The notes: generated by a model not told the origin, from the sequence alone. A stretch of DNA of 64,000 bases from an uncultured virus (IMG/VR IMGVR_UViG_3300030101_003124) (IMGVR_UViG_3300030101_003124:1-64000); one strand, 5' to 3'. Positions 3,143 through 58,507 are shown, counted from the first letter of the stretch. Numbers and translations are program-made.

Positions 3143-3382
3143 ATGGCACAGAAATTATCACGTCGAGCAGCATCGGCAAAGAAGAAAAGAGATTTAGCAT
3201 TTGCTAAGACTGCAGCGCGTAAACGTAAAAAAGCTGAGAATCAGAGGTTACGTAGAGCTGCTAAAAAAGCTGGTAAAAGCTTAAAGGGTAAAGACTATGA
3301 CCATAAAAGAAATAGATTTGTCAGCGTAAAATCTAACCGTGGAAACGAGGGCAAGGGTACCAAAAGAGAAGGGCGTAAGTAA
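3143..3382 (+). CDS. Highly basic small protein with a degenerate HNH-like DYDH...NR motif
   Basis: ORF track; K/R-rich; KGKDYDHK..VSVKSNRG. Confidence 0.55.
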   Translation: MAQKLSRRAASAKKKRDLAFAKTAARKRKKAENQRLRRAAKKAGKSLKGKDYDHKRNRFVSVKSNRGNEGKGTKREGRK

Positions 3383-3778: not shown

Positions 3779-5350
3779 ATGGAATTTAATAACCCTAGTC
3801 AGATCGTAAAAGATCTAAACTTTGGCGATGTTGCCAAAAAAAGAGTTATTACCGGTGTAGAAAAATTAGCATCCGCTGTTAAATCTACACTTGGTGCTTC
3901 TGGTAAGTGCGTAGTATATGAAGACGCAAGAGGAAACCCTGTTATTACAAAAGACGGTGTTACTGTAGCTGAATCAGTTATACTAAGAGATCCTGTAGAA
4001 AACATAGGTGCAACACTTATTAAAGAAGCTGCTAAAAATACAGTGAGAGAAGCAGGTGACGGTACCACTACGGCTACCGTCCTTGCTGAATCACTATTAA
4101 AATTAGCAAATAGTAACGAATATTATGATGAATCTATACGAGATATTAAGCACGGTATGCAAACTGGGCTTAAAAAAGTAGAAGATTACTTAAAAGATAA
4201 TTCAGTAGCGGTAACTGGTGATATGTTAACTAGTGTAGCTACTATAAGTTGCAACGGAGATGCTAATCTAGGTAAGATAATTGCTGAAGCTTATGCTAAA
4301 GTTGGTAAAGATGGCACGGTTTTAATGGAAGAAAGCGAAACTGAAGAGACTTATGCTGACGTTGTTGAGGGTGTTAAGCTATCTGGAGGTCTAACATCTC
4401 AATATTTTGTAACTGATAAAGATAAAAACAGAGCAATACTAGAAAATCCACTAGTTTTAATTGTATCTTCTAAAATACCTAACATAAGAAAGATACAAAA
4501 CATACTAGAACATGTGATAAAAACTGGTAGATCTTTGCTAATTATGGCAGAAGTTGATCAACAGGTCAAATCTGCGCTTTTAATGAATAAAGTTAAAGGT
4601 AATATTAAAGTAAACATTGTAGATTTACCTGCACATGGTAAATATAAAGATCAAACTTTAGATGATTTAGCTTTAATAACTGGTGCAAAGGTCATGAACG
4701 AAGAGCTTGGAGATGATTTAGATCTAATCCAGCCAGATTGCTTGGGTGAAGTAGTAAAATCTGTGACTGACGACAGAACTACAGTCCTGACAACTGGTCC
4801 TCGAACAAGTAAACTTGAAGAAAGACAAGAAGAAATCAGAAAGTTAATAAAAAATGAGGAAAACGGTTATATAAAGAAGCAATTGCAAAAAAGATTATCA
4901 ACACTTTCAGGTTTTGTTGGTGTGATAAAAGTCGGAGCGTACTCAAAAGTTGAAATGAAGGAGAAAAAGGACAGAGTTGAAGATGCTATTTTTGCTACAA
5001 AAGCTGCTTTACAAGAAGGAATCGTTTCAGGCGGTGGAATTGCATTATTAAATGCTGCTTTAAGTATAAAAGAAGAAAATATAGGCGAAGAAATAGTTTC
5101 AAAAGCTATATTATCACCATTTAGAACTATACTTGATAACGCAGGTATTGAAAATGCTAAAGTTCCTAAAAAAATAGGCTATGGTATTGATGTAATTACT
5201 GGAAAAGAGGTCAATATGATTGAAAATGGCATTATTGACCCGGTTTTGGTAACAAAAACGGCACTAAAAAATGCAATTTCAGTAGTTTCTACTATAATTT
5301 CTGCAGATTGTGTAATATCTAATATAAGAGTGGACAATGCAAGCAGTTAA
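3779..5350 (+). CDS. groEL: Chaperonin GroEL (phage-encoded)
   Basis: AVKSTLG, ITKDGVTVA, AGDGTTTATVLA, KEKKDRVEDA, GIIDP motifs. Confidence 0.97.
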   Translation: MEFNNPSQIVKDLNFGDVAKKRVITGVEKLASAVKSTLGASGKCVVYEDARGNPVITKDGVTVAESVILRDPVENIGATLIKEAAKNTVREAGDGTTTATVLAESLLKLANSNEYYDESIRDIKHGMQTGLKKVEDYLKDNSVAVTGDMLTSVATISCNGDANLGKIIAEAYAKVGKDGTVLMEESETEETYADVVEGVKLSGGLTSQYFVTDKDKNRAILENPLVLIVSSKIPNIRKIQNILEHVIKTGRSLLIMAEVDQQVKSALLMNKVKGNIKVNIVDLPAHGKYKDQTLDDLALITGAKVMNEELGDDLDLIQPDCLGEVVKSVTDDRTTVLTTGPRTSKLEERQEEIRKLIKNEENGYIKKQLQKRLSTLSGFVGVIKVGAYSKVEMKEKKDRVEDAIFATKAALQEGIVSGGGIALLNAALSIKEENIGEEIVSKAILSPFRTILDNAGIENAKVPKKIGYGIDVITGKEVNMIENGIIDPVLVTKTALKNAISVVSTIISADCVISNIRVDNASS

Positions 5351-5594
5351 TCAATACATAGTAATAGAAAAAATTAAGCAAGAGCGTACTAAAGTTGCAG
5401 GTTTAGAGCTTACAGAAGAATTAGACAGTGACAATAGGTATGCTAAAGGCAAGGTTATAACTTGTGGCAGGTTTGCAGAAGGAGTAAAAGACGGAGATAT
5501 TGTACATTACGACAAGCATGTTGGCCATAGTATAAGATACAATGACAATGTATATGAGGTTATAACAATAAGAGATGTTGTTCTTGTCGGATGA
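5337..5594 (+). CDS. groES: Co-chaperonin GroES
   Basis: 85 aa; KGKVITCG..GVKDGDIVHY..G; overlaps the groEL stop. Confidence 0.85.
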   Translation: MQAVNQYIVIEKIKQERTKVAGLELTEELDSDNRYAKGKVITCGRFAEGVKDGDIVHYDKHVGHSIRYNDNVYEVITIRDVVLVG

Positions 5595-6033: not shown

Positions 6034-6411
6034 ATGGGAAAACCAGGAAACAAAAATCAAAGCACACTTAGCAATATATTTTGCAGAGTGCCTAATGCGT
6101 GTTCAGCTAACACTAGAAAATCATCTAAACCTAAAGTACCAGGAATTAGTCCAGCTAAAGCAATGTACGATAGCAACTCTAAATTTACAGCTGAAGCTTT
6201 AAGCAAACTAAAAGCTGCTGACATAGGTGGTAAATTTGGTGCAATAGTAGACAATGCTCAACCTACTGATACTAATAGCAATGCTAAATACGGTATAGGT
6301 AATGAAGGTGGTTACGCTAGAGACGCTCAACAAATATCTTCAGATAAAGATGTTGTATCATCTGCTAAGAAAAAAGGCTGCGGACATAAAGGTAGTAAAT
6401 ATAAAAAATAA
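6034..6411 (+). CDS. Low-complexity basic protein with SPAK/SSAK motifs
   Basis: ORF track; TAATG overlap with the next gene. Confidence 0.65.
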   Translation: MGKPGNKNQSTLSNIFCRVPNACSANTRKSSKPKVPGISPAKAMYDSNSKFTAEALSKLKAADIGGKFGAIVDNAQPTDTNSNAKYGIGNEGGYARDAQQISSDKDVVSSAKKKGCGHKGSKYKK

Positions 6412-6860
6412 TGGGATTTAAATTACCAAAAACTCATAAGTCACTATTCTATAAAATGAACGGTAAGGCTTCTGATGCTTTTAAACCTAAACATCCTGTA
6501 GAAGTAAAACCTTTAGGTGAAGGTATAAAAGCTGAAGCAAATCAAGACGGGACAACATATGTTAGTCCAGACGTTGATCTAAATTCTTATGAGGGAAGAT
6601 TAGTTTTAGAACATGAAGAAGCTCATCACGATCAGTTTGAAGCTTTATGGGATAAAAAACTAGAAAAAGAAGTTGACGAACCAAATGAAAACACTGTTGC
6701 TTTATTTTCATATGATGATAAATATACATATTGGAAAGGCGAAGCTATTCCTAGAGATAAAGAAAACGAAGGTAGTGGTAACTTAGATTGGGAGAAAGAC
6801 GCTGAAGATAGAGTAAAAGCAAAAATAGGTTACGGTACCTATGGCAAAGTAAAAGAATAA
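6411..6860 (+). CDS. Putative zincin-like metallopeptidase
   Basis: VLEHEEAH (HExxH) plus downstream WEKDA. Confidence 0.55.
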   Translation: MGFKLPKTHKSLFYKMNGKASDAFKPKHPVEVKPLGEGIKAEANQDGTTYVSPDVDLNSYEGRLVLEHEEAHHDQFEALWDKKLEKEVDEPNENTVALFSYDDKYTYWKGEAIPRDKENEGSGNLDWEKDAEDRVKAKIGYGTYGKVKE

Positions 6861-6870
6861 ATAAAAAATC

Positions 6871-7983
6871 ATGGCAAAAATAACAGAAATATTAAAACAC
6901 AATGAGAAATCATTGTCATCTGCAAAACACTTAGTAGATGGTAAAGGACATGGCATGGACGGTCATGATCACACTTCAGCTATAGGTAATATAGATGGGA
7001 TTAAAAAAATTATAAACACTAAAGCTGATGGTACAAAAACTTACGAGGTTCCTCCTGCTGTAGCTGGTGGAGAAGCTGGTGACGCTTATAAAAACAAAAT
7101 GATTGAAATGTATAAGGGTGGCGCTTCAATAGAAGACCTAGTAAAGCAAAAGCACGGTACTGTTGAAGGTTTAACAAAATTATTAGAAGGAGTTACAAGA
7201 ACAACAACAATACCAGGTAGTCAAACATTACAAGATATACCTAGTACAAATCCAGGCACGCCTGGAACTCCTCCGATACCTGAAAAATCAGTGACAGAAG
7301 GTGATTATTTAACAGCTGGTGAAACTAGAGAAGCTGGTAAAATATTAAAACTAAGAAATAAAGGTGGTGATAAAAGAAAGAAACAAGCCACTAAAAGCTT
7401 AAACAAGATGGTTAAGCAAGGTTTAGATATAGATAAAGAAATAGCAGCTGGCAACCAAAGTGTTATTAGCTTACTAGAACAAAGCGGTGGTTATAACAAA
7501 GGTGGTAAATTCAGAAAAGGATTTCTTGGTTTAGGTGGGGTAAATGATGATTTTGTTAGTACATCAGATAAAGTAGATGTTAAAAGCGCAAGTAGTGATC
7601 CTAGAGTTACAAACCCATATGTACGTAGACCTGGTAGTGCACAAGGTGTTAATAGAATGAACTTAGACAATAAAGTTATAACACAAGAAGCTGTAGAAGG
7701 AACAGAGGGAACAGCCGGTACTAGTTCACCAACTACACCAGCTGGTCCAGATGATACAGTTTATAAGAAAAACCCTAACACAAATAAATATGAGGCCGTG
7801 CCTAGTCCTGACACAAAACAAGAGGACATTATTTCTACAACTAGTTTATCATCACAAATGGAAACAAATGTGACTGGTAGTGGCGTAAGACCTAGTAGTA
7901 AGTACAAAGGAAACGCTGTGTCTAGGTTTAAAGTTAAAGGATATAAAATGAGCGGCTTTGGAAACAAGGCTAGTAAAAAATGA
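6871..7983 (+). CDS. Hypothetical G/T/K-rich virion-associated protein, 370 aa
   Basis: ORF track; position in the late operon. Confidence 0.7.
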   Translation: MAKITEILKHNEKSLSSAKHLVDGKGHGMDGHDHTSAIGNIDGIKKIINTKADGTKTYEVPPAVAGGEAGDAYKNKMIEMYKGGASIEDLVKQKHGTVEGLTKLLEGVTRTTTIPGSQTLQDIPSTNPGTPGTPPIPEKSVTEGDYLTAGETREAGKILKLRNKGGDKRKKQATKSLNKMVKQGLDIDKEIAAGNQSVISLLEQSGGYNKGGKFRKGFLGLGGVNDDFVSTSDKVDVKSASSDPRVTNPYVRRPGSAQGVNRMNLDNKVITQEAVEGTEGTAGTSSPTTPAGPDDTVYKKNPNTNKYEAVPSPDTKQEDIISTTSLSSQMETNVTGSGVRPSSKYKGNAVSRFKVKGYKMSGFGNKASKK

Positions 7984-8384
7984 GCAAGATATTAAGTAAA
8001 ATATTTGGCAAAGCAGGTGGCTCTGTTGTAGATAAACTAGCTGGTGTTGCTGATAGATTCATAAGAACAAAAGACGAGAAAGCTGAGTTTGAAAAAGAAA
8101 TGACCAGCATTTTAATAGAAGCTGAAGCTGCTATGCAAAAAAATGTAACCGAAAGGTGGAAAGCAGATTTAGAGCACGGAAACTGGTTAACGCGTTCAGT
8201 TCGTCCTCTCGTACTTATATTCCTCATAGTGGCGACCGTGCTCATGGTATTTATAGATTCAGGTTCAATTAACTTCAATGTTGAAGAAAAATGGACTGAT
8301 TTATTGCAATTAGTACTTATGACAACTATCGGCGCCTATTTCGGCGGACGAAGTGTTGAAAAGTATAATAAAATGAAAAAATAA
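7980..8384 (+). CDS. Putative holin (3TM, GTA-type holin-like)
   Basis: ERWKADL..WLTRSVRPL, hydrophobic helices, GAYFGGRSVEK. Confidence 0.7.
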   Translation: MSKILSKIFGKAGGSVVDKLAGVADRFIRTKDEKAEFEKEMTSILIEAEAAMQKNVTERWKADLEHGNWLTRSVRPLVLIFLIVATVLMVFIDSGSINFNVEEKWTDLLQLVLMTTIGAYFGGRSVEKYNKMKK

Positions 8385-9136: not shown

Positions 9137-10759
9137 ATGGCAATACAATATTTACACGATTTAAATATCAATTACAACGAGCTGCAAAATGCTAAGCTCC
9201 ATGTAACAACATCCACGCCTACAGCTGTAAAAGGTGTTATTTATTATGATGATAACAACAACGTAATAAAGTACCGAGATAATGCTGGGTGGAAAACAAT
9301 TGAAACAACAACTGGCGACTCTAATACTTTTTTAAGTGGATTAGCTTTTAATACCAGTTCGGGTGTTTTAACAGCAACATTAACCGACTCAAGCACTGTA
9401 ACAGTTGATCTTGATGGTAAGTACGCTGAAGCATCACACGTTCACACTTTTGCTTCTTTAACAAGTAAACCAACAACAATAGATGGTTTCGGTATTACAG
9501 ATGCTTTTGATGGTGCTTATAGCTCTTTATCTGGAATACCATCTACTTTCACACCTGCTTCACATACTCACGCAGCAAGTGACGTAACATCTGGAACTTT
9601 TGCTGATGCAAGAATTCCTAGTTTGGCTGCAAGTAAAATAACTAGTGGCACTTTTGGAACAGCAAGAATACCTGATTTAGCAGCTTCTAAGATAACATCT
9701 GGAACTTTAGGTACAGCTAGAATTCCTAATTTAGCCGCATCTAAAATAAACAGTGGTACATTTGATGCTGCAAGAATACCAAATTTAGCTGCATCTAAAA
9801 TAAGTAGTGGTCAAGTAGCGGTTGCACAAGGTGGTACTGGTGCTAGTACATTAGATGGTGCTGGTATTGTGTTGAAGTCAGGTGCTCAGTCAATAGCTGG
9901 TAATAAAACGTTTAGTAATAATGTAACTGTAAATGGTGATTTAATTGTATCTGGTAATCAAACAACTAAAAATTCTGAAGTTGTATTAATTGAAGATAAT
10001 ATAATTACTCTTAATAGTAACGAAACTGGTTCACCTAGTGAAGATTCTGGTATACTAGTTGAAAGAGGAACAGCTACAAACGTACAGTGGATATGGGATG
10101 AGAGTGCTTCAAGATGGGGTGCTTTTGGTGGTGAATCAATGGGTACTAAAGGAAATGTTGGTGTAGGAACATTATATGCTGACACTCTTGATGTAACAAA
10201 CTACGGTTTAACTGCAGGTGATATACCAAACCTTAACACAAGTAAGTTAACAGCTGGCACACTGCCTGTTGCAAGAGGTGGTACTGGTGCTACTTCGTTT
10301 ACTGATAAATCAGTTATTGTTTCACAAGATACTGGTACAGATGCTTTAGCTGCAAAAGCAATGACTACAAATGGATCATTATTAATTGGTGGTACATCTG
10401 GTCCTGAAGTTGCAACTTTAACAGCTGGTTCAAATGTAACAATTACAAACGCAAACAACAGTATTACAATTGCGTCTTCTGTTAGTACATCAGATATTAA
10501 CAATCAGATCGATGCTAGATCTAGTGCTCATACAATTACTGGTGATGGTAGTGATGTTGAATTTACAATTACTTATGGGTTTACTGCAGCTGCTATAAAC
10601 GATGTTATGATACAAGTTGTTGATAGCTCTGGTGATCACGATGGCGATACAGTGTTTGCTGAAGTTGAAAGACACTCAACCACACAGTGTAAAATTAAAT
10701 TTGCTACAGCACCTGCTAACAACAAAACATATAGAGTACTTTGCTTTAAAATAGCATAA
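9137..10759 (+). CDS. Tail fibre protein
   Basis: Tandem ASKITSGT..ARIP repeats, VAxGGTGA motifs, S/T/G-rich. Confidence 0.8.
   Translation: MAIQYLHDLNINYNELQNAKLHVTTSTPTAVKGVIYYDDNNNVIKYRDNAGWKTIETTTGDSNTFLSGLAFNTSSGVLTATLTDSSTVTVDLDGKYAEASHVHTFASLTSKPTTIDGFGITDAFDGAYSSLSGIPSTFTPASHTHAASDVTSGTFADARIPSLAASKITSGTFGTARIPDLAASKITSGTLGTARIPNLAASKINSGTFDAARIPNLAASKISSGQVAVAQGGTGASTLDGAGIVLKSGAQSIAGNKTFSNNVTVNGDLIVSGNQTTKNSEVVLIEDNIITLNSNETGSPSEDSGILVERGTATNVQWIWDESASRWGAFGGESMGTKGNVGVGTLYADTLDVTNYGLTAGDIPNLNTSKLTAGTLPVARGGTGATSFTDKSVIVSQDTGTDALAAKAMTTNGSLLIGGTSGPEVATLTAGSNVTITNANNSITIASSVSTSDINNQIDARSSAHTITGDGSDVEFTITYGFTAAAINDVMIQVVDSSGDHDGDTVFAEVERHSTTQCKIKFATAPANNKTYRVLCFKIA
9572..9811 (+). 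repeat. About 4.5 tandem 54-nt (18-aa) repeats, AASKITSGTFxxARIPxL
   Basis: Visible in protein and DNA, with synonymous divergence. Confidence 0.85.
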
Positions 10760-10778
10760 TAAATTAAATTAAAATAAT

Positions 10779-11372
10779 ATGTCTTTAAAATTTCTACAAG
10801 ATTTAAATCTTAGTAGTGTCGAAATCGATGCGCCAAACGCTCCGACAAACTTAAGCTTAACAGTTGTTGGAGACACTATTAATGTGACTTTTACAGCGTC
10901 GACTTCTACAAACATAGACTATTATCTAATATTTGGCTCGGTTGCTGGTGGTGATTATGGATTAGTATCTGTAATACCTCCAGCTGACTTTGCTAATACA
11001 ATGAGTACAATAGATAATTCTTTTGATACTCCAGGCACACAAGCATATAGAGTATATGCGGTTAAATCAGGTAAATATTCCTCGGCTTTAACAGGCAGTA
11101 TATCTTTTAGCGCTGGTACTGTTGAGGTAACAGGTATGACAGTTACTGCTTTAAATAGTGCTTTTCTAATACAATGGAATCCTCCATCGTCAAAATCAAG
11201 ATTTGTTACAGCTTACAATGTTTTCAAGCATCAGCACGCTACTCAAGGTAGTTTAGCTGAAGGCTCGGCTAGTTTAATATATTCTGGTTTAGATACTAGG
11301 TTTATGTACGTAGTTAGTGGTAATAGCACTGACTTTCATCAATTTTGGATAACTACAACAATAGCATCGTGA
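10779..11372 (+). CDS. Protein with two fibronectin type III-like domains
   Basis: APNAPTNLSL..INVTF..YRVYAV; second domain LIQWNPP..AYNVF. Confidence 0.65.
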   Translation: MSLKFLQDLNLSSVEIDAPNAPTNLSLTVVGDTINVTFTASTSTNIDYYLIFGSVAGGDYGLVSVIPPADFANTMSTIDNSFDTPGTQAYRVYAVKSGKYSSALTGSISFSAGTVEVTGMTVTALNSAFLIQWNPPSSKSRFVTAYNVFKHQHATQGSLAEGSASLIYSGLDTRFMYVVSGNSTDFHQFWITTTIAS

Positions 11373-20614: not shown

Positions 20615-20810
20615 TATTGGTAAAGATTATAAAAACGATGCCATGCATTACTCTGTAGGCCAAGAGGTTTATGGTGGGCATACTATTGAAGCTATATTAG
20701 AGGATAAAGATAAGTTTAGCGTTTATATAAAAAAGAACGATGAAATTATACCTTGGAAAGATTTCAATAAAAACATGGCAATATCTGTTGAATATAACCT
20801 AGAGTATTAG
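20589..20810 (+). CDS. Hypothetical protein, 73 aa
   Basis: ORF track; overlaps both neighbours. Confidence 0.7.
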   Translation: MEKLIRKISIGKDYKNDAMHYSVGQEVYGGHTIEAILEDKDKFSVYIKKNDEIIPWKDFNKNMAISVEYNLEY

Positions 20811-21406
20811 TGAAAGGTGTACAAAACTTTATAATAAAACCATTAGGTAGTAGATATAACAACGAGAAAAAAATTGGTGATAAAAATCTTATATTAAATA
20901 CAGATATTTTTCAACATAAATTTGTAAATAGACACGCTGTTGTTATAGAAACTCCTACTGTTGGTGATACAAAAATAAAAAAAGGTGACACTGTTATAGT
21001 GCACCATAATGTTTTTCGTAGATGGCATGATGTAAAAGGTGTTGAAAGAAATAGCAAAAGCTATTACAAAGACGGTTTATATTTTGTTTATCCAGATCAA
21101 GTTTTTGCTTATAATAATGGTAAAGAGTGGTTAGCTACCGATGGTTTTTGTTTTGTACAACCTATTGAAAACGATAGTGTGTATAGCATAAATGCAGAAA
21201 AAGAATTAGCAGGTATATTGTTTTACCCAGATAAACACTTAACTGATGCAGGTTTAAAAAAAGGAGACTTAGTTGGTTTTAAACCTAACACTGCTTACGA
21301 GTTTACAATAGATGGTAAGAAATTATATAGAATTATGAACCACTCAATTACAATTAAATATGAGTACAAAGGAAACGAAAAAGAGTATAATCCAAGCTGG
21401 TCATAA
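20810..21406 (+). CDS. Protein with two GroES-like repeats (GTG start)
   Basis: FIIKP..AVVIETP..IKKGDTVIV and CFVQP..GILFY..LKKGDLVGF..IDGKKLYRI. Confidence 0.5.
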   Translation: MKGVQNFIIKPLGSRYNNEKKIGDKNLILNTDIFQHKFVNRHAVVIETPTVGDTKIKKGDTVIVHHNVFRRWHDVKGVERNSKSYYKDGLYFVYPDQVFAYNNGKEWLATDGFCFVQPIENDSVYSINAEKELAGILFYPDKHLTDAGLKKGDLVGFKPNTAYEFTIDGKKLYRIMNHSITIKYEYKGNEKEYNPSWS

Positions 21407-49860: not shown

Positions 49861-51057
49861 ATGAGACAATTGCTAATTATAGTATTTTTACTATCAAATA
49901 TCACTGTTTTTGCACAAGAAAACAAAAAAAGTATATTTAAATCAATTTATGATGAATTTTTTAAATATAGTACTTTTTACATAGCTGGTGATATAGATAA
50001 TCCAAAAGAAGAAGTTAAAGATTATTTTGTAAGAACAAATCCAGATGGTGGTCTGTATGATATACCCGTTGTAGTAGACGGAACAGATTACTATGACTTT
50101 GATTATAGATATGGTTTTGGTGTGCGTAAACTAGCTAGGTTTGATTATGAATTTAAAGGTAAACATTATTATGATGGTACTGAAAGTAGTGTAGGCTTAG
50201 CCGCAACTAATTCACCTGTAAAAGGTTTTGAATATTTATTCCACTGGGAAAAGGAAAGAGAAAGAGACGAAGTATTTGACAATCATAGATATTTTTTAAA
50301 ACATAGTGGTAAATACCATGTTGTTAAAATAGAAAGTAGAAAACAAGGTAAAGTTGATTTTAACTATAAGTCAGCTGAAGTAAAAGCTAAATTACCTATT
50401 GGTAATAAATTTAGTTTATCTGCAGGCGCTATATACCGTACACACGAAAGACCTTATGGATATAATCCTATTGAAATATGGTTAAATGAAACAGAAATAA
50501 TAAACGGTCAAGAATATCCTGTTAACTATTGGTACGAACTAGGTTTCTTATATGGTTATGATGATGTATATTATACACAGCAAGATGAGTTTGGCAACGA
50601 AGTATATGACTGGTATTGGATAGATCCAGATGGAAATATAGTTGCTGATAGTGATTTAGAGTTTCGTGATGGTGTGTTTGCAGATCTTATGAACCGATAC
50701 AATAATGAGATATTTGAAAACATCGATGCGTTTGGTGTAATATCACCTGTTGTCGGTTTTGACTTTTACCACTATAAAAATAATTTCTGGCTCCATGCTT
50801 ATGGTAACTACCTATTACCATATCACAAGTATGTTCAAGGTGACGAAGACTTTAGTTATTTAAATAGAAATAACTGGGGTAAAGGTGGACTAAAACAAGA
50901 TTCTGAGCCAGAACAATGGGAGGATTATCAAGCTGGTGTTGTATTTGGTTGGAAGCTAAGTAAATCAATTGGTTTGTTTGTAGAGGGTGAATATACTAAA
51001 TTCTGGGATAGTAAAATCTATAACAGTTCTGTTGGACTAAATATAACACTAAGATAA
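49861..51057 (+). CDS. Exported protein, probable outer-membrane beta-barrel
   Basis: Sec signal MRQLLIIVFLLSNITVFA-Q; alternating aromatic strands; C-terminal YNSSVGLNITLR. Confidence 0.6.
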   Translation: MRQLLIIVFLLSNITVFAQENKKSIFKSIYDEFFKYSTFYIAGDIDNPKEEVKDYFVRTNPDGGLYDIPVVVDGTDYYDFDYRYGFGVRKLARFDYEFKGKHYYDGTESSVGLAATNSPVKGFEYLFHWEKERERDEVFDNHRYFLKHSGKYHVVKIESRKQGKVDFNYKSAEVKAKLPIGNKFSLSAGAIYRTHERPYGYNPIEIWLNETEIINGQEYPVNYWYELGFLYGYDDVYYTQQDEFGNEVYDWYWIDPDGNIVADSDLEFRDGVFADLMNRYNNEIFENIDAFGVISPVVGFDFYHYKNNFWLHAYGNYLLPYHKYVQGDEDFSYLNRNNWGKGGLKQDSEPEQWEDYQAGVVFGWKLSKSIGLFVEGEYTKFWDSKIYNSSVGLNITLR

Positions 51058-51341
51058 TGGCAAATCAAATTGGAGAAAACACAAAGGTAACATTAGACCT
51101 TAAAACAATAGGTATTATTGTAGGTTTTACAATTACTTTAGCAAGTATGTATTTTGTAATGCAAGCAGATATAGCTAAAGCTATGGAACTACCAGCACCT
51201 GTTATTGATAGAGTTGAATATGATTTAAAAGATGAATTAATTCGTCAGACAATTATGGATACGCAAGAAGACGTAGAAGAAATTAAAGAAACTATTGACA
51301 AGATAGATCAAAGATTATACGAAATACAAAGAAACAGGTAA
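51057..51341 (+). CDS. Single-TM coiled-coil protein, 94 aa
   Basis: TIGIIVGFTITLASMYFVM followed by heptads; TAATG overlaps on both sides. Confidence 0.7.
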   Translation: MANQIGENTKVTLDLKTIGIIVGFTITLASMYFVMQADIAKAMELPAPVIDRVEYDLKDELIRQTIMDTQEDVEEIKETIDKIDQRLYEIQRNR

Positions 51342-51784
51342 TGAAAGAAAAAACTAAAATTTTTATAATGTATATGCTTATTTTAATACTAGCATTTACA
51401 GCTAGCCTTGCAATGGCACAATCAGACGTGCCAGAAAAATATTGGATAGATGATACTAATTTTGAAGAAAAAATAAATATAAAAGAGGCTTTTGGAGACG
51501 ATAACAACAAACCTGTTGTAGTTGAGTTTTGGGCAAAGTTTAACGAAGTAAACTGTTTTGCTGAGTGGGATCAGTTAGAAGATGCTATTTATTATAGAGT
51601 TGATATAGCTAAAGCTCCAACAGCTAAAAAGAAATACAAAGTCCGTATGGCACCAACTATTATAATATATAAAGATGGTTTTAAAGAAGAAGTTTTTAAA
51701 GCAGGTTTAGATCTTGAATTACCTGCAGGTCTCGAAGAAATTCAAGAAGCAATAAATGAAGTTAATAACGCAAGTAAATTTTAA
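51341..51784 (+). CDS. Exported thioredoxin-fold protein lacking CxxC
   Basis: Signal peptide; PVVVEFWAKFN..YRVDI..YKVRMAPTIIIYKDG. Confidence 0.7.
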   Translation: MKEKTKIFIMYMLILILAFTASLAMAQSDVPEKYWIDDTNFEEKINIKEAFGDDNNKPVVVEFWAKFNEVNCFAEWDQLEDAIYYRVDIAKAPTAKKKYKVRMAPTIIIYKDGFKEEVFKAGLDLELPAGLEEIQEAINEVNNASKF

Positions 51785-52142
51785 GCTATGTGTCCTTTTT
51801 GTCCTATTTGCATTTGTAAGTAATGCACAATTATTAAGTGAAAAAGATAAACAGTTACATTTTGTAGCTGGTAGCTTGGCTAGTGCAACCGGCTATACGT
51901 ATGTGTGGAACAAAACAAAGGATAAAAAATTATCTTTAATGGCTGGTATAGGTACTTCTATATTAGCTGGATCAATAAAAGAAATATTAGACTCTACTCA
52001 ACCAGGTAACAAGTTTGACACAAGAGATCTAACCGCTACAGCACTTGGCGGTATAACTGTAAGTGTTACAATTAATTTATTTAATAATGATAAATCTAAT
52101 AAAAAAGTTCGTAAAAGACGTTTGGGCGTATTTATGGAGTAA
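51756..52142 (+). CDS. YfiM/DUF2279-like membrane protein
   Basis: DKQLHF..AGSIKEILD..FDTRDLTATALG. Confidence 0.6.
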   Translation: MKLITQVNFKLCVLFVLFAFVSNAQLLSEKDKQLHFVAGSLASATGYTYVWNKTKDKKLSLMAGIGTSILAGSIKEILDSTQPGNKFDTRDLTATALGGITVSVTINLFNNDKSNKKVRKRRLGVFME

Positions 52143-52326
52143 AACTACAGTAGATGAAAAAGCAATTGCTACTGTAAAAGAAATAAAGAAAAGATATAAG
52201 CTAACTGCAGAAGAACTTGCAGATGTAGCTAAAGCAATAAAAGAAGTTGGAAACCAATTAGGTGACATTGATGACGCTATTGCTGGTAAAGCACGTAAAG
52301 GTAGAAAAAGTGGAAAGACTAAGTAA
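52087..52326 (+). CDS. Small amphipathic/coiled-coil protein; likely start MINLIKK
   Basis: ORF track 52063..52326. Confidence 0.55.
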   Translation: MINLIKKFVKDVWAYLWSKTTVDEKAIATVKEIKKRYKLTAEELADVAKAIKEVGNQLGDIDDAIAGKARKGRKSGKTK

Positions 52327-52774
52327 ACACGTAAGTTATCGCGAAGGTGTGTATAGCAGAACAGCAGAGAGACTTGGATTAAAAAATGATCCCTCTGATG
52401 TTCATTTAACAAACATGAAGCTTATTGCAGAAAAAGTATTTGAACCTCTTAGAGAGTTTGTAGGAGGTCCTATAAAGATAAATTCATTTTATCGTGGACC
52501 TGAACTTAACAAAGCTATTGGTGGTTCATCAAAATCTCAACATTGTCATGGTCAAGCAATTGACATTGATGATACATTTGGACATGCTACTAATGCTGTT
52601 ATGTTTAAATGGATAAGAGAAAACATAGACTTTGATCAGATGATATGGGAGTTCGGCACTGACAAAAATCCTAACTGGGTTCACGTTAGTTACGTAAGTC
52701 CTGAGTCTAATAGAAAAAGATGCTTAAAAGCATATAAAGACAAAAACAATAAAACAAACTACAAAATAATATAA
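52310..52774 (+). CDS. Peptidase M15-family endolysin; likely GTG start at 52310
   Basis: PIKINSFYR..LNKAIGGS..SQHCHGQAIDI..WVHVSY. Confidence 0.85.
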   Translation: MERLSKHVSYREGVYSRTAERLGLKNDPSDVHLTNMKLIAEKVFEPLREFVGGPIKINSFYRGPELNKAIGGSSKSQHCHGQAIDIDDTFGHATNAVMFKWIRENIDFDQMIWEFGTDKNPNWVHVSYVSPESNRKRCLKAYKDKNNKTNYKII

Positions 52775-52776
52775 CT

Positions 52777-53046
52777 ATGGCAAAGAAAAAAGGTAAAGGT
52801 TTAAAAAGCGCTTGCTGGTCAGGTTACGAAGCTATCGGCATGAAGAAAAAAGGCGGTAGGATGGTACCTAACTGCGTTCCTATAACTAAGAAAGTAAAAA
52901 AATCGCCAGCTAAAATAGCTCCATTATTAGCAGCTGCTGTACCAATGGTTGGTAAAGCAATTGCGGGTGCTGTTGCAAATAAAGCTGTTAACGCAGTATC
53001 AAAATACTCACCTGCTAAAGCTGGTTGTGGTAATCATAAAAAATAA
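52777..53046 (+). CDS. Small basic protein with CWxGY..VPNCVP motif and two SPAK motifs
   Basis: ORF track; leader AATATAACT-ATG. Confidence 0.65.
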   Translation: MAKKKGKGLKSACWSGYEAIGMKKKGGRMVPNCVPITKKVKKSPAKIAPLLAAAVPMVGKAIAGAVANKAVNAVSKYSPAKAGCGNHKK

Positions 53047-53049
53047 GAT

Positions 53050-53466
53050 ATGTGGTTAAAAAGAGTTAATAGCACTACAAACAATACGTTTAATTACGAC
53101 TGTCATACAGAGTGTAAAACCTGTGGTAGTCCAGCTAAACATTGTGGTTGTGGTATTATAGGACCTAAAAAAATAGGTGACGCACCATATCCATCTCCAG
53201 CTAAAAAGAAAAAAAGTAACGAACCTAGAAAAACTACTAAAGGTAAAGGGCGTAACTTTCGTACTACAAAAGAAGGTGCAGGTATGACTGAAAAAGGTGT
53301 AAAAGAGTATAGAAAGAAAAATCCTGGTAGTAAATTAAAGACAGCTGTAACAGGTAAAGTAAAACCTGGTAGCAAAGCTGCTAAACGTAGAAAATCATTT
53401 TGCGCTAGATCAAAAGGTTGGACCGGTGAAAGAGGTCGAGCTGCTAGACGTAGATGGAAATGCTAA
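53050..53466 (+). CDS. Basic Cys-rich protein (RRKSFCAR...RRWKC) with two SPAK motifs
   Basis: ORF track. Confidence 0.7.
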   Translation: MWLKRVNSTTNNTFNYDCHTECKTCGSPAKHCGCGIIGPKKIGDAPYPSPAKKKKSNEPRKTTKGKGRNFRTTKEGAGMTEKGVKEYRKKNPGSKLKTAVTGKVKPGSKAAKRRKSFCARSKGWTGERGRAARRRWKC

Positions 53467-53470
53467 AATT

Positions 53471-53686
53471 ATGTGGAAATTATTTGAAGATAAAAACAAC
53501 ATTAACGAAAAGAACATAATAGGTTTTGCTTCTTTTATAGTAATGGTTTTGTTTGCTGTGGCTGACTTACTAACAAGTCTTATAGCAGATAAAGATCTTA
53601 TTATTAATGAAGTAGTTTATAATTCTTTCGTGTGGGTTACACTTGGATGTTTTGGCATATCTGCTGTAGAAAAAATAAAGAAATAA
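53471..53686 (+). CDS. Two-TM membrane protein, holin candidate; likely start MWKLFED
   Basis: Two hydrophobic helices; last gene of the + strand block. Confidence 0.55.
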   Translation: MWKLFEDKNNINEKNIIGFASFIVMVLFAVADLLTSLIADKDLIINEVVYNSFVWVTLGCFGISAVEKIKK

Positions 53687-53716
53687 AAAAAAGGGGCTTT
53701 CGCCCCTTTAATTTTA
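53685..53716. terminator. Bidirectional rho-independent terminator between convergent blocks
   Basis: A-run, AAAGGGGC-TTTC-GCCCCTTT, T-rich tail. Confidence 0.85.
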
Positions 53717-57722: not shown

Positions 57723-58507
57723 CTTTTACAAATGTTCCGTTAATCATTTTACCTTTTCGTTTACTTATCACGTTGTATGCTTCTGCTATACACGTTTCTA
57801 TATTTGTTCCGTGTAAATGTGCTAGGTTTGTTAATACAACAACCATGTCACCGATAGCGTCATTTATCTCATCATGATCGTTATTTAATAATGCCTGAGC
57901 CAGTTCGCCAGCTTCTTCTTGAAGTTTTACATANNNNNNNNNNGATTGTGTTACCTTTATCATAAAGACCTCGTTGCTCTGCCCAGTCTCTAATATTTTG
58001 AAACATTTTTAAAGGTTTTTTGGAGCACTTGGCTGTTGTTGGTTTTTCGAACACATCATTGTTGTCGTAAAACCTAGCAAATGCTTTGTTGTACACATAA
58101 CATCTTTCGTTATTATACATTGAAGTTTTTACGTTTCTCATTATCCAGTCTATTGTTTTAGGCGTTACATCTAGTTGACCGTGCTCGGTTTTCCAGTTCA
58201 TACCTATATTGTCAAACAATCTACCTTTTAATTTGTCAACAGGACAAGGAAACGTAGTGGTCTGTTCAGTAATATTTATATTCATTTTTTTATTTGGTTT
58301 AAGGTTTTTATATGGTACCATATCTACACGATAACCATATTCTTTTTGTAATTCTAGTTCTTTAGAAGATATAAAATCTACATCTTCTGATTTTTCTAGT
58401 ATTTCATACTCATCAGGATTATAGCCTTGTTGAACAGTGACCCGGTTATTAAGATCACACGTAACACCTATCTTTTTACCTGGTATATGATAAATATAAT
58501 ATGTCAT
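57712..58507 (-). CDS. GIY-YIG-like plus MazG-like fusion protein, split by an N gap
   Basis: YYIYHIPGKKIGVTCDLNNR N-terminus; IRDWAEQRGL...KLQEEAGEL..DAIGDMVVVL on either side of Ns at 57934-57943. Confidence 0.7.
57934..57943. other. Assembly gap (10 N)
   Basis: Run of n characters. Confidence 1.

What the first reader, a model, noticed from the sequence alone, without database searches (positions are those of the whole stretch)
49861..52326. Phage-encoded envelope module: beta-barrel, TM coiled coil, exported thioredoxin fold and YfiM-like protein
Seen in sequence: five overlapping or coupled genes behind their own GTAATAAT element and directly upstream of the endolysin. Three have signal peptides. 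The barrel candidate has a very acidic, aromatic insert (YDDVYYTQQDEFGNEVYDWYWIDPDG). Inference: a trans-envelope system that remodels the infected cell (uptake pore, superinfection exclusion or non-canonical outer-membrane disruption). I do not know of a described equivalent.
Basis: partly seen in the sequence, partly recalled or inferred. Interest (0 to 1): 0.7.

Follow-up and report, generated by a model that had tools for sequence, protein, structure and literature searches.

The report
Lysis-linked phage outer-membrane barrel trio
An uncultured marine phage, probably of Flavobacteria, carries three genes that related ocean phages keep together (an outer-membrane barrel, an inner-membrane helical protein and an exported thioredoxin lacking its catalytic cysteines), usually beside whichever cell-wall-cutting enzyme the phage uses, so they may be an undescribed way of opening or timing the opening of the host's outer membrane; no function has been tested.

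Summary
The five genes are real, but they are two blocks. The core is a trio: a predicted 12-stranded outer-membrane barrel (pLDDT 85), a type II membrane protein with periplasmic helices, and an exported thioredoxin fold with NxxN in place of CxxC. In 50 distant viral records all carry the membrane protein and 48 the thioredoxin (both misses end at the record edge); order permutes. The YfiM/lipocone gene (17 of 50) and ORF5 (10 of 50) are accessory. The trio sits within 1.3 kb of the endolysin in 31 of 33 distant records with a detectable one, across three unrelated endolysin classes. No lipoprotein o-spanin was seen. Best reading: a spanin-substitute bridge for the outer-membrane step of lysis (0.45); main rival: a trans-envelope sensor that times lysis (0.3). 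A large-phage clade fuses an MshE/PilB-N-like domain to the membrane protein and lies beside pilin-like genes, with no lysis gene seen nearby. GTAATAAT is not enriched. No paper describing the trio turned up in five searches; this scan noted the same trio before on other genomes.

The parts
49861..51057 (+). BAR: predicted 12-stranded outer-membrane beta-barrel, Sec signal, long conserved loop 91-121 on the inferred periplasmic side, ~95-aa insert 196-290 (holds the acidic aromatic hairpin) on the inferred outer side, C-terminal G-x-N-x-x beta-signal-like strand. Core of trio.
   Evidence: AF2 pLDDT 84.8, pTM 0.76; Foldseek NanC E 5e-6; VIA VhGalP Z 10.7 rmsd 4.2 over 154, TamA 10.5, Omp33 10.5; ESM features near porins/autotransporters; no Pfam/PHROG/NCBIfam/PDB sequence hit; 2427 clusters at 90% (8).
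51057..51341 (+). TMCC: single TM (about 17-35), inferred N-in/C-out, short helix, invariant P-x-P linker, C-terminal coiled coil; no Cys. Core of trio; i-spanin-like architecture.
   Evidence: Alignment A3; 50 of 50 distant records; exact-motif scan 55 of 80 close loci; virus-only clusters in ESM Atlas.
51341..51784 (+). TRX: exported thioredoxin fold, F-N-x-x-N where thioredoxins have CxxC, cis-Pro position kept, invariant Gln after the signal peptide and invariant C-terminal Phe. Core of trio.
   Evidence: PF00085 E 4.7e-7 (6); AF2 pLDDT 86 (101); Foldseek thioredoxins TM(target) 0.79 (109); A4 (71); 50 of 50 close and 48 of 50 distant records.
51756..52142 (+). YfiM-like lipocone-type protein with signal peptide; His35/Glu76/Asp91 kept. 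Accessory, travels with the lysis block.
   Evidence: NF008028 YfiM E 5.7e-9, below cut-off; phrog_26616 (7); triad invariant in 7 of 7 rows incl. gp38 of cultured Elemovirus; 17 of 50 close records.
52090..52326 (+). ORF5: 78-aa basic amphipathic protein without signal peptide (net about +8, hand count); disruptin-like candidate; accessory.
   Evidence: 10 of 50 close records; directly before or near the endolysin in L002, L003 (53, 54 region listings); weak TM-bearing relative in L079 cassette, 33% E 1e-4 (106).
52310..52774 (+). Peptidase M15 endolysin (probable start GTG 52310; longest frame from 52262).
   Evidence: PF08291 E 5.7e-14 (6); phrog_894 endolysin E 2.6e-30 (7).
53453..53686 (+). 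Two-TM protein, holin candidate; relatives abut the trio in L079, L087, L102, L111.
   Evidence: 56% to L079:7715 (107); weak holin phrog_4325 E 0.028 (103).
7980..8384 (+). 3-TM holin, 42 kb from the trio here but adjacent to it in many relatives.
   Evidence: PF11351 E 1.9e-5 (86); phrog_3427 holin E 7e-24 (103).
53690..53709 (.). Bidirectional terminator-like hairpin closing the late + strand run.

Best explanation
BAR, TMCC and TRX form a three-part bridge across the envelope of the infected cell that carries out the outer-membrane step of lysis, working like a spanin but with a barrel and a soluble adaptor in place of the lipoprotein. Steps: (1) late expression with the virion and lysis genes (inferred from position and strand); (2) BAR is exported by Sec and inserted by BAM, TRX is exported and is redox-dead, TMCC sits N-in/C-out in the inner membrane (predicted fold shown; localisation inferred); (3) TMCC's periplasmic helices bind TRX, which binds the conserved periplasmic loop or lumen of BAR (hypothesis; co-occurrence is shown, contact is not); (4) once holin and endolysin remove the peptidoglycan, the bridge draws the membranes together or opens the barrel and the outer membrane fails (hypothesis). 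The YfiM-like lipid head-group enzyme and ORF5 are optional helpers of the lysis cassette.
For: Obligate co-occurrence: distant set BAR 50 of 50, TMCC 50 of 50, TRX 48 of 50, both misses truncated at the record end; close set TRX 50 of 50. Order permutes (BAR-TMCC-TRX adjacent 20, TMCC-TRX-BAR 4, same strand 0.3-3.7 kb apart 23, opposite strands 3). Endolysin linkage survives replacement of the enzyme: M15 peptidase co-directional within 0.7 kb in 20 of 21 distant records that have one and within 2 kb in 41 of 41 close records; a second class (phrog_33083-like) within 1.3 kb in 11 of 12 (133); PG-binding Amidase_2 24 nt after TRX in L079 and 330 nt in G050. Holins of three kinds also abut it (3-TM: 22 strong hits all within 2.7 kb; Phage_holin_4_1 in L079; holin-like L102:7302). 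TMCC matches the Rz plan of TM, helix, linker, helix (PMC6139136 passages). No lipobox lipoprotein seen by eye in TMCC's other frames or in the late ORFs read. 91 of 677 phages in that survey have no spanin. From own knowledge: divalent cations, high in seawater, make the outer-membrane step more necessary.
Against: Spanins are extremely diverse (PMC6139136) whereas BAR is 72-79% identical across the listed clusters and carries a large outer domain that fusion would not need. TMCC has only about 59 periplasmic residues and no Cys (70). Linkage is not universal: endolysin 5.4 kb away in G002, over 40 kb in G001, 6.7 kb in G092, not near in L078 and L161, and BAR is on the opposite strand from TMCC-TRX in 3 of 50 records. 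In the MshE/PilB-N-fused clade no M15 was found in 0 of 20 and no class-2 endolysin in 0 of 5 records (all fragments), and the two loci read show pilin-like neighbours instead. Cultured Elemovirus lacks the trio and shows no evident spanin either, so the trio is not the only solution in this lineage. Records within each set are related, so counts overstate independence.
Confidence: 0.45

Rival explanations
1. The trio is a trans-envelope sensing device that times lysis or excludes superinfection: BAR's outer domain senses a ligand or an incoming phage, TRX relays it, and TMCC passes it to the holin or the cytoplasm (lysis-inhibition-like).
For: Strong conservation and a large outer insert; conserved polar residues that alternate toward the lumen (R193, S295, D301, H312; read by hand); a clade in which TMCC carries a cytoplasmic domain similar to PilB/MshE N-termini (5zfr E 2.3e-6, 5htl E 2.8e-4), with BAR in 18 of 20 such records; equally explains the linkage to lysis genes.
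Against: Most TMCCs have only about 16 cytoplasmic residues; Pfam did not call the MshEN family and c-di-GMP binding is recalled, not tested; leaves the outer-membrane step without a gene unless ORF5 does it, and ORF5 is in only 10 of 50 records.
Confidence: 0.3
2. The trio is an uptake pore or surface-remodelling unit (auxiliary metabolic or exclusion moron) parked in the lysis region; the outer membrane is broken by something else, such as ORF5 acting as a disruptin.
For: Top fold matches are 12-stranded sugar-acid porins NanC and VhGalP; other envelope genes cluster nearby (DUF6580 in L074, small OMPs in L081/L082, lipocone, pilin-like genes); ORF5 resembles phiKT gp28 in size, charge and amphipathy (abstract of 10.1101/515445).
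Against: Fold scores are generic (Z about 10, rmsd 4-5; many barrels tie); a porin needs no inner-membrane partner; a moron would not keep within 1.3 kb of three unrelated endolysin classes.
Confidence: 0.2
3. The three are virion or ejection proteins because they follow the 2915-aa cargo gene.
For: Position after the cargo gene here and in L072, L165.
Against: Cleavable signal peptides on BAR and TRX; the trio occurs in unrelated genome plans; cultured relatives with the same head-tail module lack it.
Confidence: 0.04

Closest known systems
Two-component spanins (lambda Rz/Rz1, T4 PseT.3/PseT.2; PMC6139136, PMC5295617 passages)
   Same: Type II inner-membrane protein with two periplasmic helices and a linker; position in lysis cassettes; proposed role.
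   Different: No OM lipoprotein; partner genes encode a 12-stranded barrel and a soluble thioredoxin fold; no periplasmic Cys; no sequence hit of TMCC to spanin PHROGs; far more conserved.
Disruptin gp28 of phiKT (10.1101/515445, abstract)
   Same: ORF5 is small, basic, amphipathic and next to the endolysin.
   Different: 78 aa, no sequence comparison made, present in only 10 of 50 trio-bearing records.
KdgM/NanC 12-stranded porins (2wjr, 8xua)
   Same: Strand number and best structural scores.
   Different: 7-9% identity, rmsd 4-14 A, large outer insert and long inner loop absent from those porins.
Lipocone superfamily, YfiM clade (PMC12419801 passages)
   Same: Four-helix motif pattern DKxxH / ExxD / DxxD; YfiM-clade members are reported linked to OM barrels.
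   Different: Below the NCBIfam cut-off; here accessory and found without the barrel in Elemovirus; family within the clade not assigned.
Phage-encoded OMPs (lambda Lom, Lc/NmpC porins, cyanophage OMP PF24653; the first two recalled)
   Same: Phage-made OM barrels exist.
   Different: They are single genes without an IM partner and adaptor; no hit of BAR to these families.

Membership tests
Two-component spanin | i-spanin: N-in/C-out single TM with periplasmic helices | tested here: met
   TMCC alignment: Lys before TM, acidic C-side, helix-PxP-helix; topology inferred by hand.
Two-component spanin | o-spanin: OM lipoprotein embedded in, overlapping or next to the i-spanin gene | tested here: not met
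   No + strand ORF of 20 aa or more inside TMCC other than the listed genes; neighbours BAR and TRX have no lipobox Cys. A lipoprotein follows TRX in some relatives (L070, L003) but not here.
Two-component spanin | Periplasmic cysteines for disulfide-linked dimers | tested here: not met
   No Cys in 14 of 14 TMCC rows.
Two-component spanin | Complements a spanin-null lysis defect / fuses IM and OM | not testable with these tools
   Needs experiment.
Outer-membrane beta-barrel | Even number of antiparallel amphipathic strands, signal peptide, C-terminal strand signal | tested here: met
   12 long strands in the AF2 model; best structural matches all OM barrels; conserved G-x-N-Y/I-x-F/L end.
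KdgM/NanC porin family | Sequence or close structural homology | tested here: inconclusive
   Top by Foldseek and VIA but tied with TamA, Omp33; 7-9% identity; no Pfam hit.
Thioredoxin (redox-active) | Thioredoxin fold | tested here: met
Thioredoxin (redox-active) | CxxC active site | tested here: not met
   F-N-x-x-N instead; N68 and N71 at least 90% conserved in 24 rows.
Lipocone / YfiM clade | His (H2), Glu (H3), Asp (H4) in a four-helix core | tested here: met
   H35, E76, D91 invariant in 7 rows; motifs compared with passages of PMC12419801; fold not modelled.
YfiM family lipoprotein (NF008028) | Curated score cut-off and lipobox | tested here: not met
   36 bits against 117 (108); signal ends A-Q, no Cys at the cleavage site (1).
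Disruptin | Cationic amphipathic peptide that disrupts the OM in lysis | tested here: inconclusive
   ORF5 composition fits (hand count); activity untested.
MshEN c-di-GMP receptor (variant clade only) | Tandem RLGxxL...LxxQ motif, c-di-GMP binding | tested here: inconclusive
   phmmer hits to PilB/PilF/MshE N-termini; no Pfam call; first Arg often Lys or Ile; binding untested; motif recalled.

The most novel reading that the evidence does not exclude
A widespread class of marine phages breaks the outer membrane with a three-component machine (IM coiled coil, redox-dead thioredoxin adaptor, BAM-inserted barrel) that is neither spanin nor disruptin, and in one large-phage clade the machine is gated from the cytoplasm by c-di-GMP through a fused MshEN-like domain, coupling lysis to the host's lifestyle state.
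Probability: 0.3. Interest if true: 0.88.

Novelty: categorically new. Interest (0 to 1): 0.68.

Why it matters
About 13% of surveyed phages of Gram-negative hosts have no recognisable spanin (91 of 677, PMC6139136), and how flavobacterial phages open the outer membrane is largely unannotated. The family is large (2427 clusters at 90% identity for the barrel, 3919 for the thioredoxin), virus-restricted in the searches run, and absent from the cultured-phage collection, so it would be a major unseen lysis or lysis-control pathway in the ocean. It gives three small genes for a direct complementation test and, whichever reading holds, an undescribed phage-built trans-envelope complex.

Tried and rejected
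Complex prediction of BAR(20-398) + TMCC(36-94) + TRX(27-147): no verdict, score 0.02 against a mark of 0.32, controls not folded. GTAATAAT as a dedicated element: not enriched. Five-gene unit: rejected. TMCC-TRX fusions P0392, P0393, P0397, P0399, P0402, P0403, P0405: single-contig entries that keep TRX's signal peptide inside, most likely read-throughs, not counted as fusion evidence. Cys-rich micro-ORF at 51789-51824: similar frames turn up inside other signal-peptide codons, so probably a by-product; unresolved for L039 and L064. OMPLA/PagL-type enzyme: conserved polar residues alternate toward the lumen by hand reading, no triad on the lipid face seen; not modelled. L074:10202 as a T4-T-like holin: not confirmed. 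Cellular homologues: the GTDB scan (close-relative patterns only) gave 3 loci, all in MAG contigs; the one read (L165) is a phage contig; alignment-based GTDB scans could not run, so distant cellular relatives are not excluded. Cultured phages: no tblastn match for BAR (two queries) or TMCC. PDB sequence search with A1: none. No named OM-barrel family stood out in VIA. The script machine was lost, so distances were computed by hand from listed coordinates and no tree, coordinate-level or lipobox scan was run.

Full report
Context. The window is bases 1-64000 of a 68.7-kb virus record with terminase, portal, capsid, muzzle and cargo genes on the + strand. Its capsid protein is 41-47% identical to those of Flavobacterium elemo, Cellulophaga and Maribacter phages, so a flavobacterial host is likely (inference). 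The finding lies between the 2915-aa cargo gene and an M15 endolysin; the late run ends at a bidirectional hairpin at 53690-53709.

Observation. The five ORFs, their coupling and the acidic stretch are as described. The GTAATAAT element is not above chance (11 against 7.9; 15 of 100 shuffles) and is mostly intragenic. Signal peptides were judged by eye.

The barrel. With 53 sequences AF2 gives pLDDT 84.8 and twelve long strands. Reading the topology from the termini, a conserved 30-residue loop (GxRKxARFxYExK...YDGxE) lies on the periplasmic side and the 95-residue insert with the acidic hairpin on the outside; several distant rows carry a DxDxNG-like stretch there (calcium-binding reading recalled). 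Structure searches return only generic OM barrels, NanC and VhGalP first, plus one true viral relative in BFVD (A0A516LKJ4, TM 0.69). There is no Pfam, PHROG, NCBIfam or PDB sequence family. The family is large: 2427 clusters at 90% and 267 representatives at 50%, viral in the Atlas, absent from cultured phages.

The partners. TMCC is a 94-aa single-pass protein with TM, helix, invariant PxP and coiled coil, without Cys. TRX folds as thioredoxin but has NxxN for CxxC, and an invariant terminal Phe, which points to a binding role. The fourth gene keeps the lipocone His/Glu/Asp set (PMC12419801, passages seen). ORF5 is basic and amphipathic with no signal.

What travels together. I searched 50 of 80 close loci and 50 of 80 distant loci (the longer records). 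Distant: BAR 50, TMCC 50, TRX 48 of 50, the two misses being cut at the record end; five of these records supplied rows to A3 and A4 and match by construction. TMCC and TRX are neighbours in all 48; BAR is adjacent in 24 (4 with permuted order), 0.3-3.7 kb away on the same strand in 23, and on the opposite strand in 3. Close: TRX 50 of 50; TMCC was tested there only by an exact motif (55 of 80). The YfiM-like gene is in 17 of 50 (one is a weak overlap artefact) and ORF5 in 10 of 50; in the nearest relatives other genes separate them from the trio, and cultured Elemovirus has a lipocone-like gene before its endolysin without any trio. So the five genes are a trio abutting a lysis block.

Link to lysis. 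Close set: M15 in 41 of 50, all co-directional within 2 kb of a trio gene (G008 across the record ends). Of the nine others, three end at the trio, G047 has a phrog_33083-like endolysin and a 3-TM holin right after TRX, G049 and G050 have an Amidase_2 there, G002 has its endolysin 5.4 kb on, and G001 and G003 have it far away. Distant set: M15 in 21 of 50, 20 within 0.7 kb; the second class in 12 of 30 records tested (one further weak hit dropped), 11 within 1.3 kb; in sum 31 of 33, with 17 of 50 showing neither class. The window's holin probe hit 33 of 50; the 22 strong hits are all within 2.7 kb, 8 of 11 weak ones are far. These records are related and the counts are not tree-corrected, but the linkage persists through three unrelated enzymes and several genome plans, which inheritance of one gene order does not explain.

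A variant that cuts the other way. A search for longer TMCC forms found a clade with a cytoplasmic N-terminal domain like PilB/MshE N-termini (no Pfam call). BAR is in 18 of 20 such records (20 of 47 loci tested). The two loci read show BAR, TMCC and TRX with lipocone-like, lipoprotein and pilin-like neighbours (pilin label from the recalled N-terminal motif) and no lysis gene; neither endolysin probe hit these fragmentary records. This raises the sensor reading.

Mechanism. The best-supported reading is a spanin substitute: TMCC has the Rz plan (PMC6139136, passages), no lipoprotein partner is seen, and the unit follows the endolysin. It fails membership as a spanin (no o-spanin, no Cys) but may work like one. 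Against it stand the high conservation, the outer domain, the short periplasmic reach and the exceptions above. I give 0.45 to the outer-membrane step, 0.3 to a sensor that times lysis or excludes, 0.2 to uptake or surface remodelling, 0.04 to a virion role. Physical contact among the three is not shown.

Literature. Five full-text searches listed no paper describing this trio. Seen: passages of PMC6139136, PMC12419801, PMC8776804, PMC10136315 and PMC5295617; abstracts and outlines of 10.1101/515445 and 10.1101/2024.01.23.576932; no supplements, where gene tables of flavobacterial phages could bear on spanin annotation. The library omits most subscription papers. Earlier notes of this scan reached the same trio and lysis lead on other genomes; my reading was formed before that call and the counts here are my own. 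In the excerpts shown they did not mention the endolysin-replacement counts or the MshE/PilB-N-fused clade.

Noticed in passing
L180:4001-4642, L190:4001-4600; P0433, P0455, P0489: TMCC variant with a cytoplasmic PilB/MshE-N-like (MshEN-like) domain in large phages; trio intact, followed by several pilin-like genes.
   Followed up: partly
L167:7644-7901 (NC_055853 gp38): Cultured Flavobacterium phage elemo has a lipocone-like gene with His/Glu/Asp kept, 340 nt before its endolysin, and no evident spanin in that block.
   Followed up: partly
window 51789-51824; L039:9824: Cys-rich micro-ORFs right after the TRX stop; in the window nested out of frame in the YfiM-like signal peptide; probably a by-product.
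   Followed up: partly
L072:10295-10921, L087:7971-8480, L102:8165-8707, L161:13643-14458: Exported proteins with tails resembling type IX secretion C-terminal signals (recalled pattern; no NCBIfam hit) lie next to trio genes.
   Followed up: partly
window 3143-3382, 6034-7983, 52777-53466 and L001/L002 9890-11230: Clusters of small very basic genes (DUF6321, phrog_10346 and kin) that move around the late region and often flank the trio.
   Followed up: no
window 3779-5594 and 20810-21406: Phage-encoded GroEL and two GroES-like genes, as in Elemovirus.
   Followed up: no
L074:4990-5469 and 10202-10819: DUF6580 transporter-like gene and a TM plus GAF-like protein flank the trio in a 213-kb phage.
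   Followed up: partly
L163, L164 (PBPJ01 contigs), L165 (QQUU01000066.1): Barrel-bearing contigs are binned into a Woesearchaeota MAG and a Bacteroidetes MAG; L165 is a phage contig, so likely binning contamination.
   Followed up: partly
window 19974, 38870, 49834: GTAAT(A/T)AT lies 14-30 nt before three late genes; could be part of a late promoter, but no enrichment was shown.
   Followed up: partly
window 57934-57943: A run of 10 N breaks the reading of a gene on the - strand.
   Followed up: no
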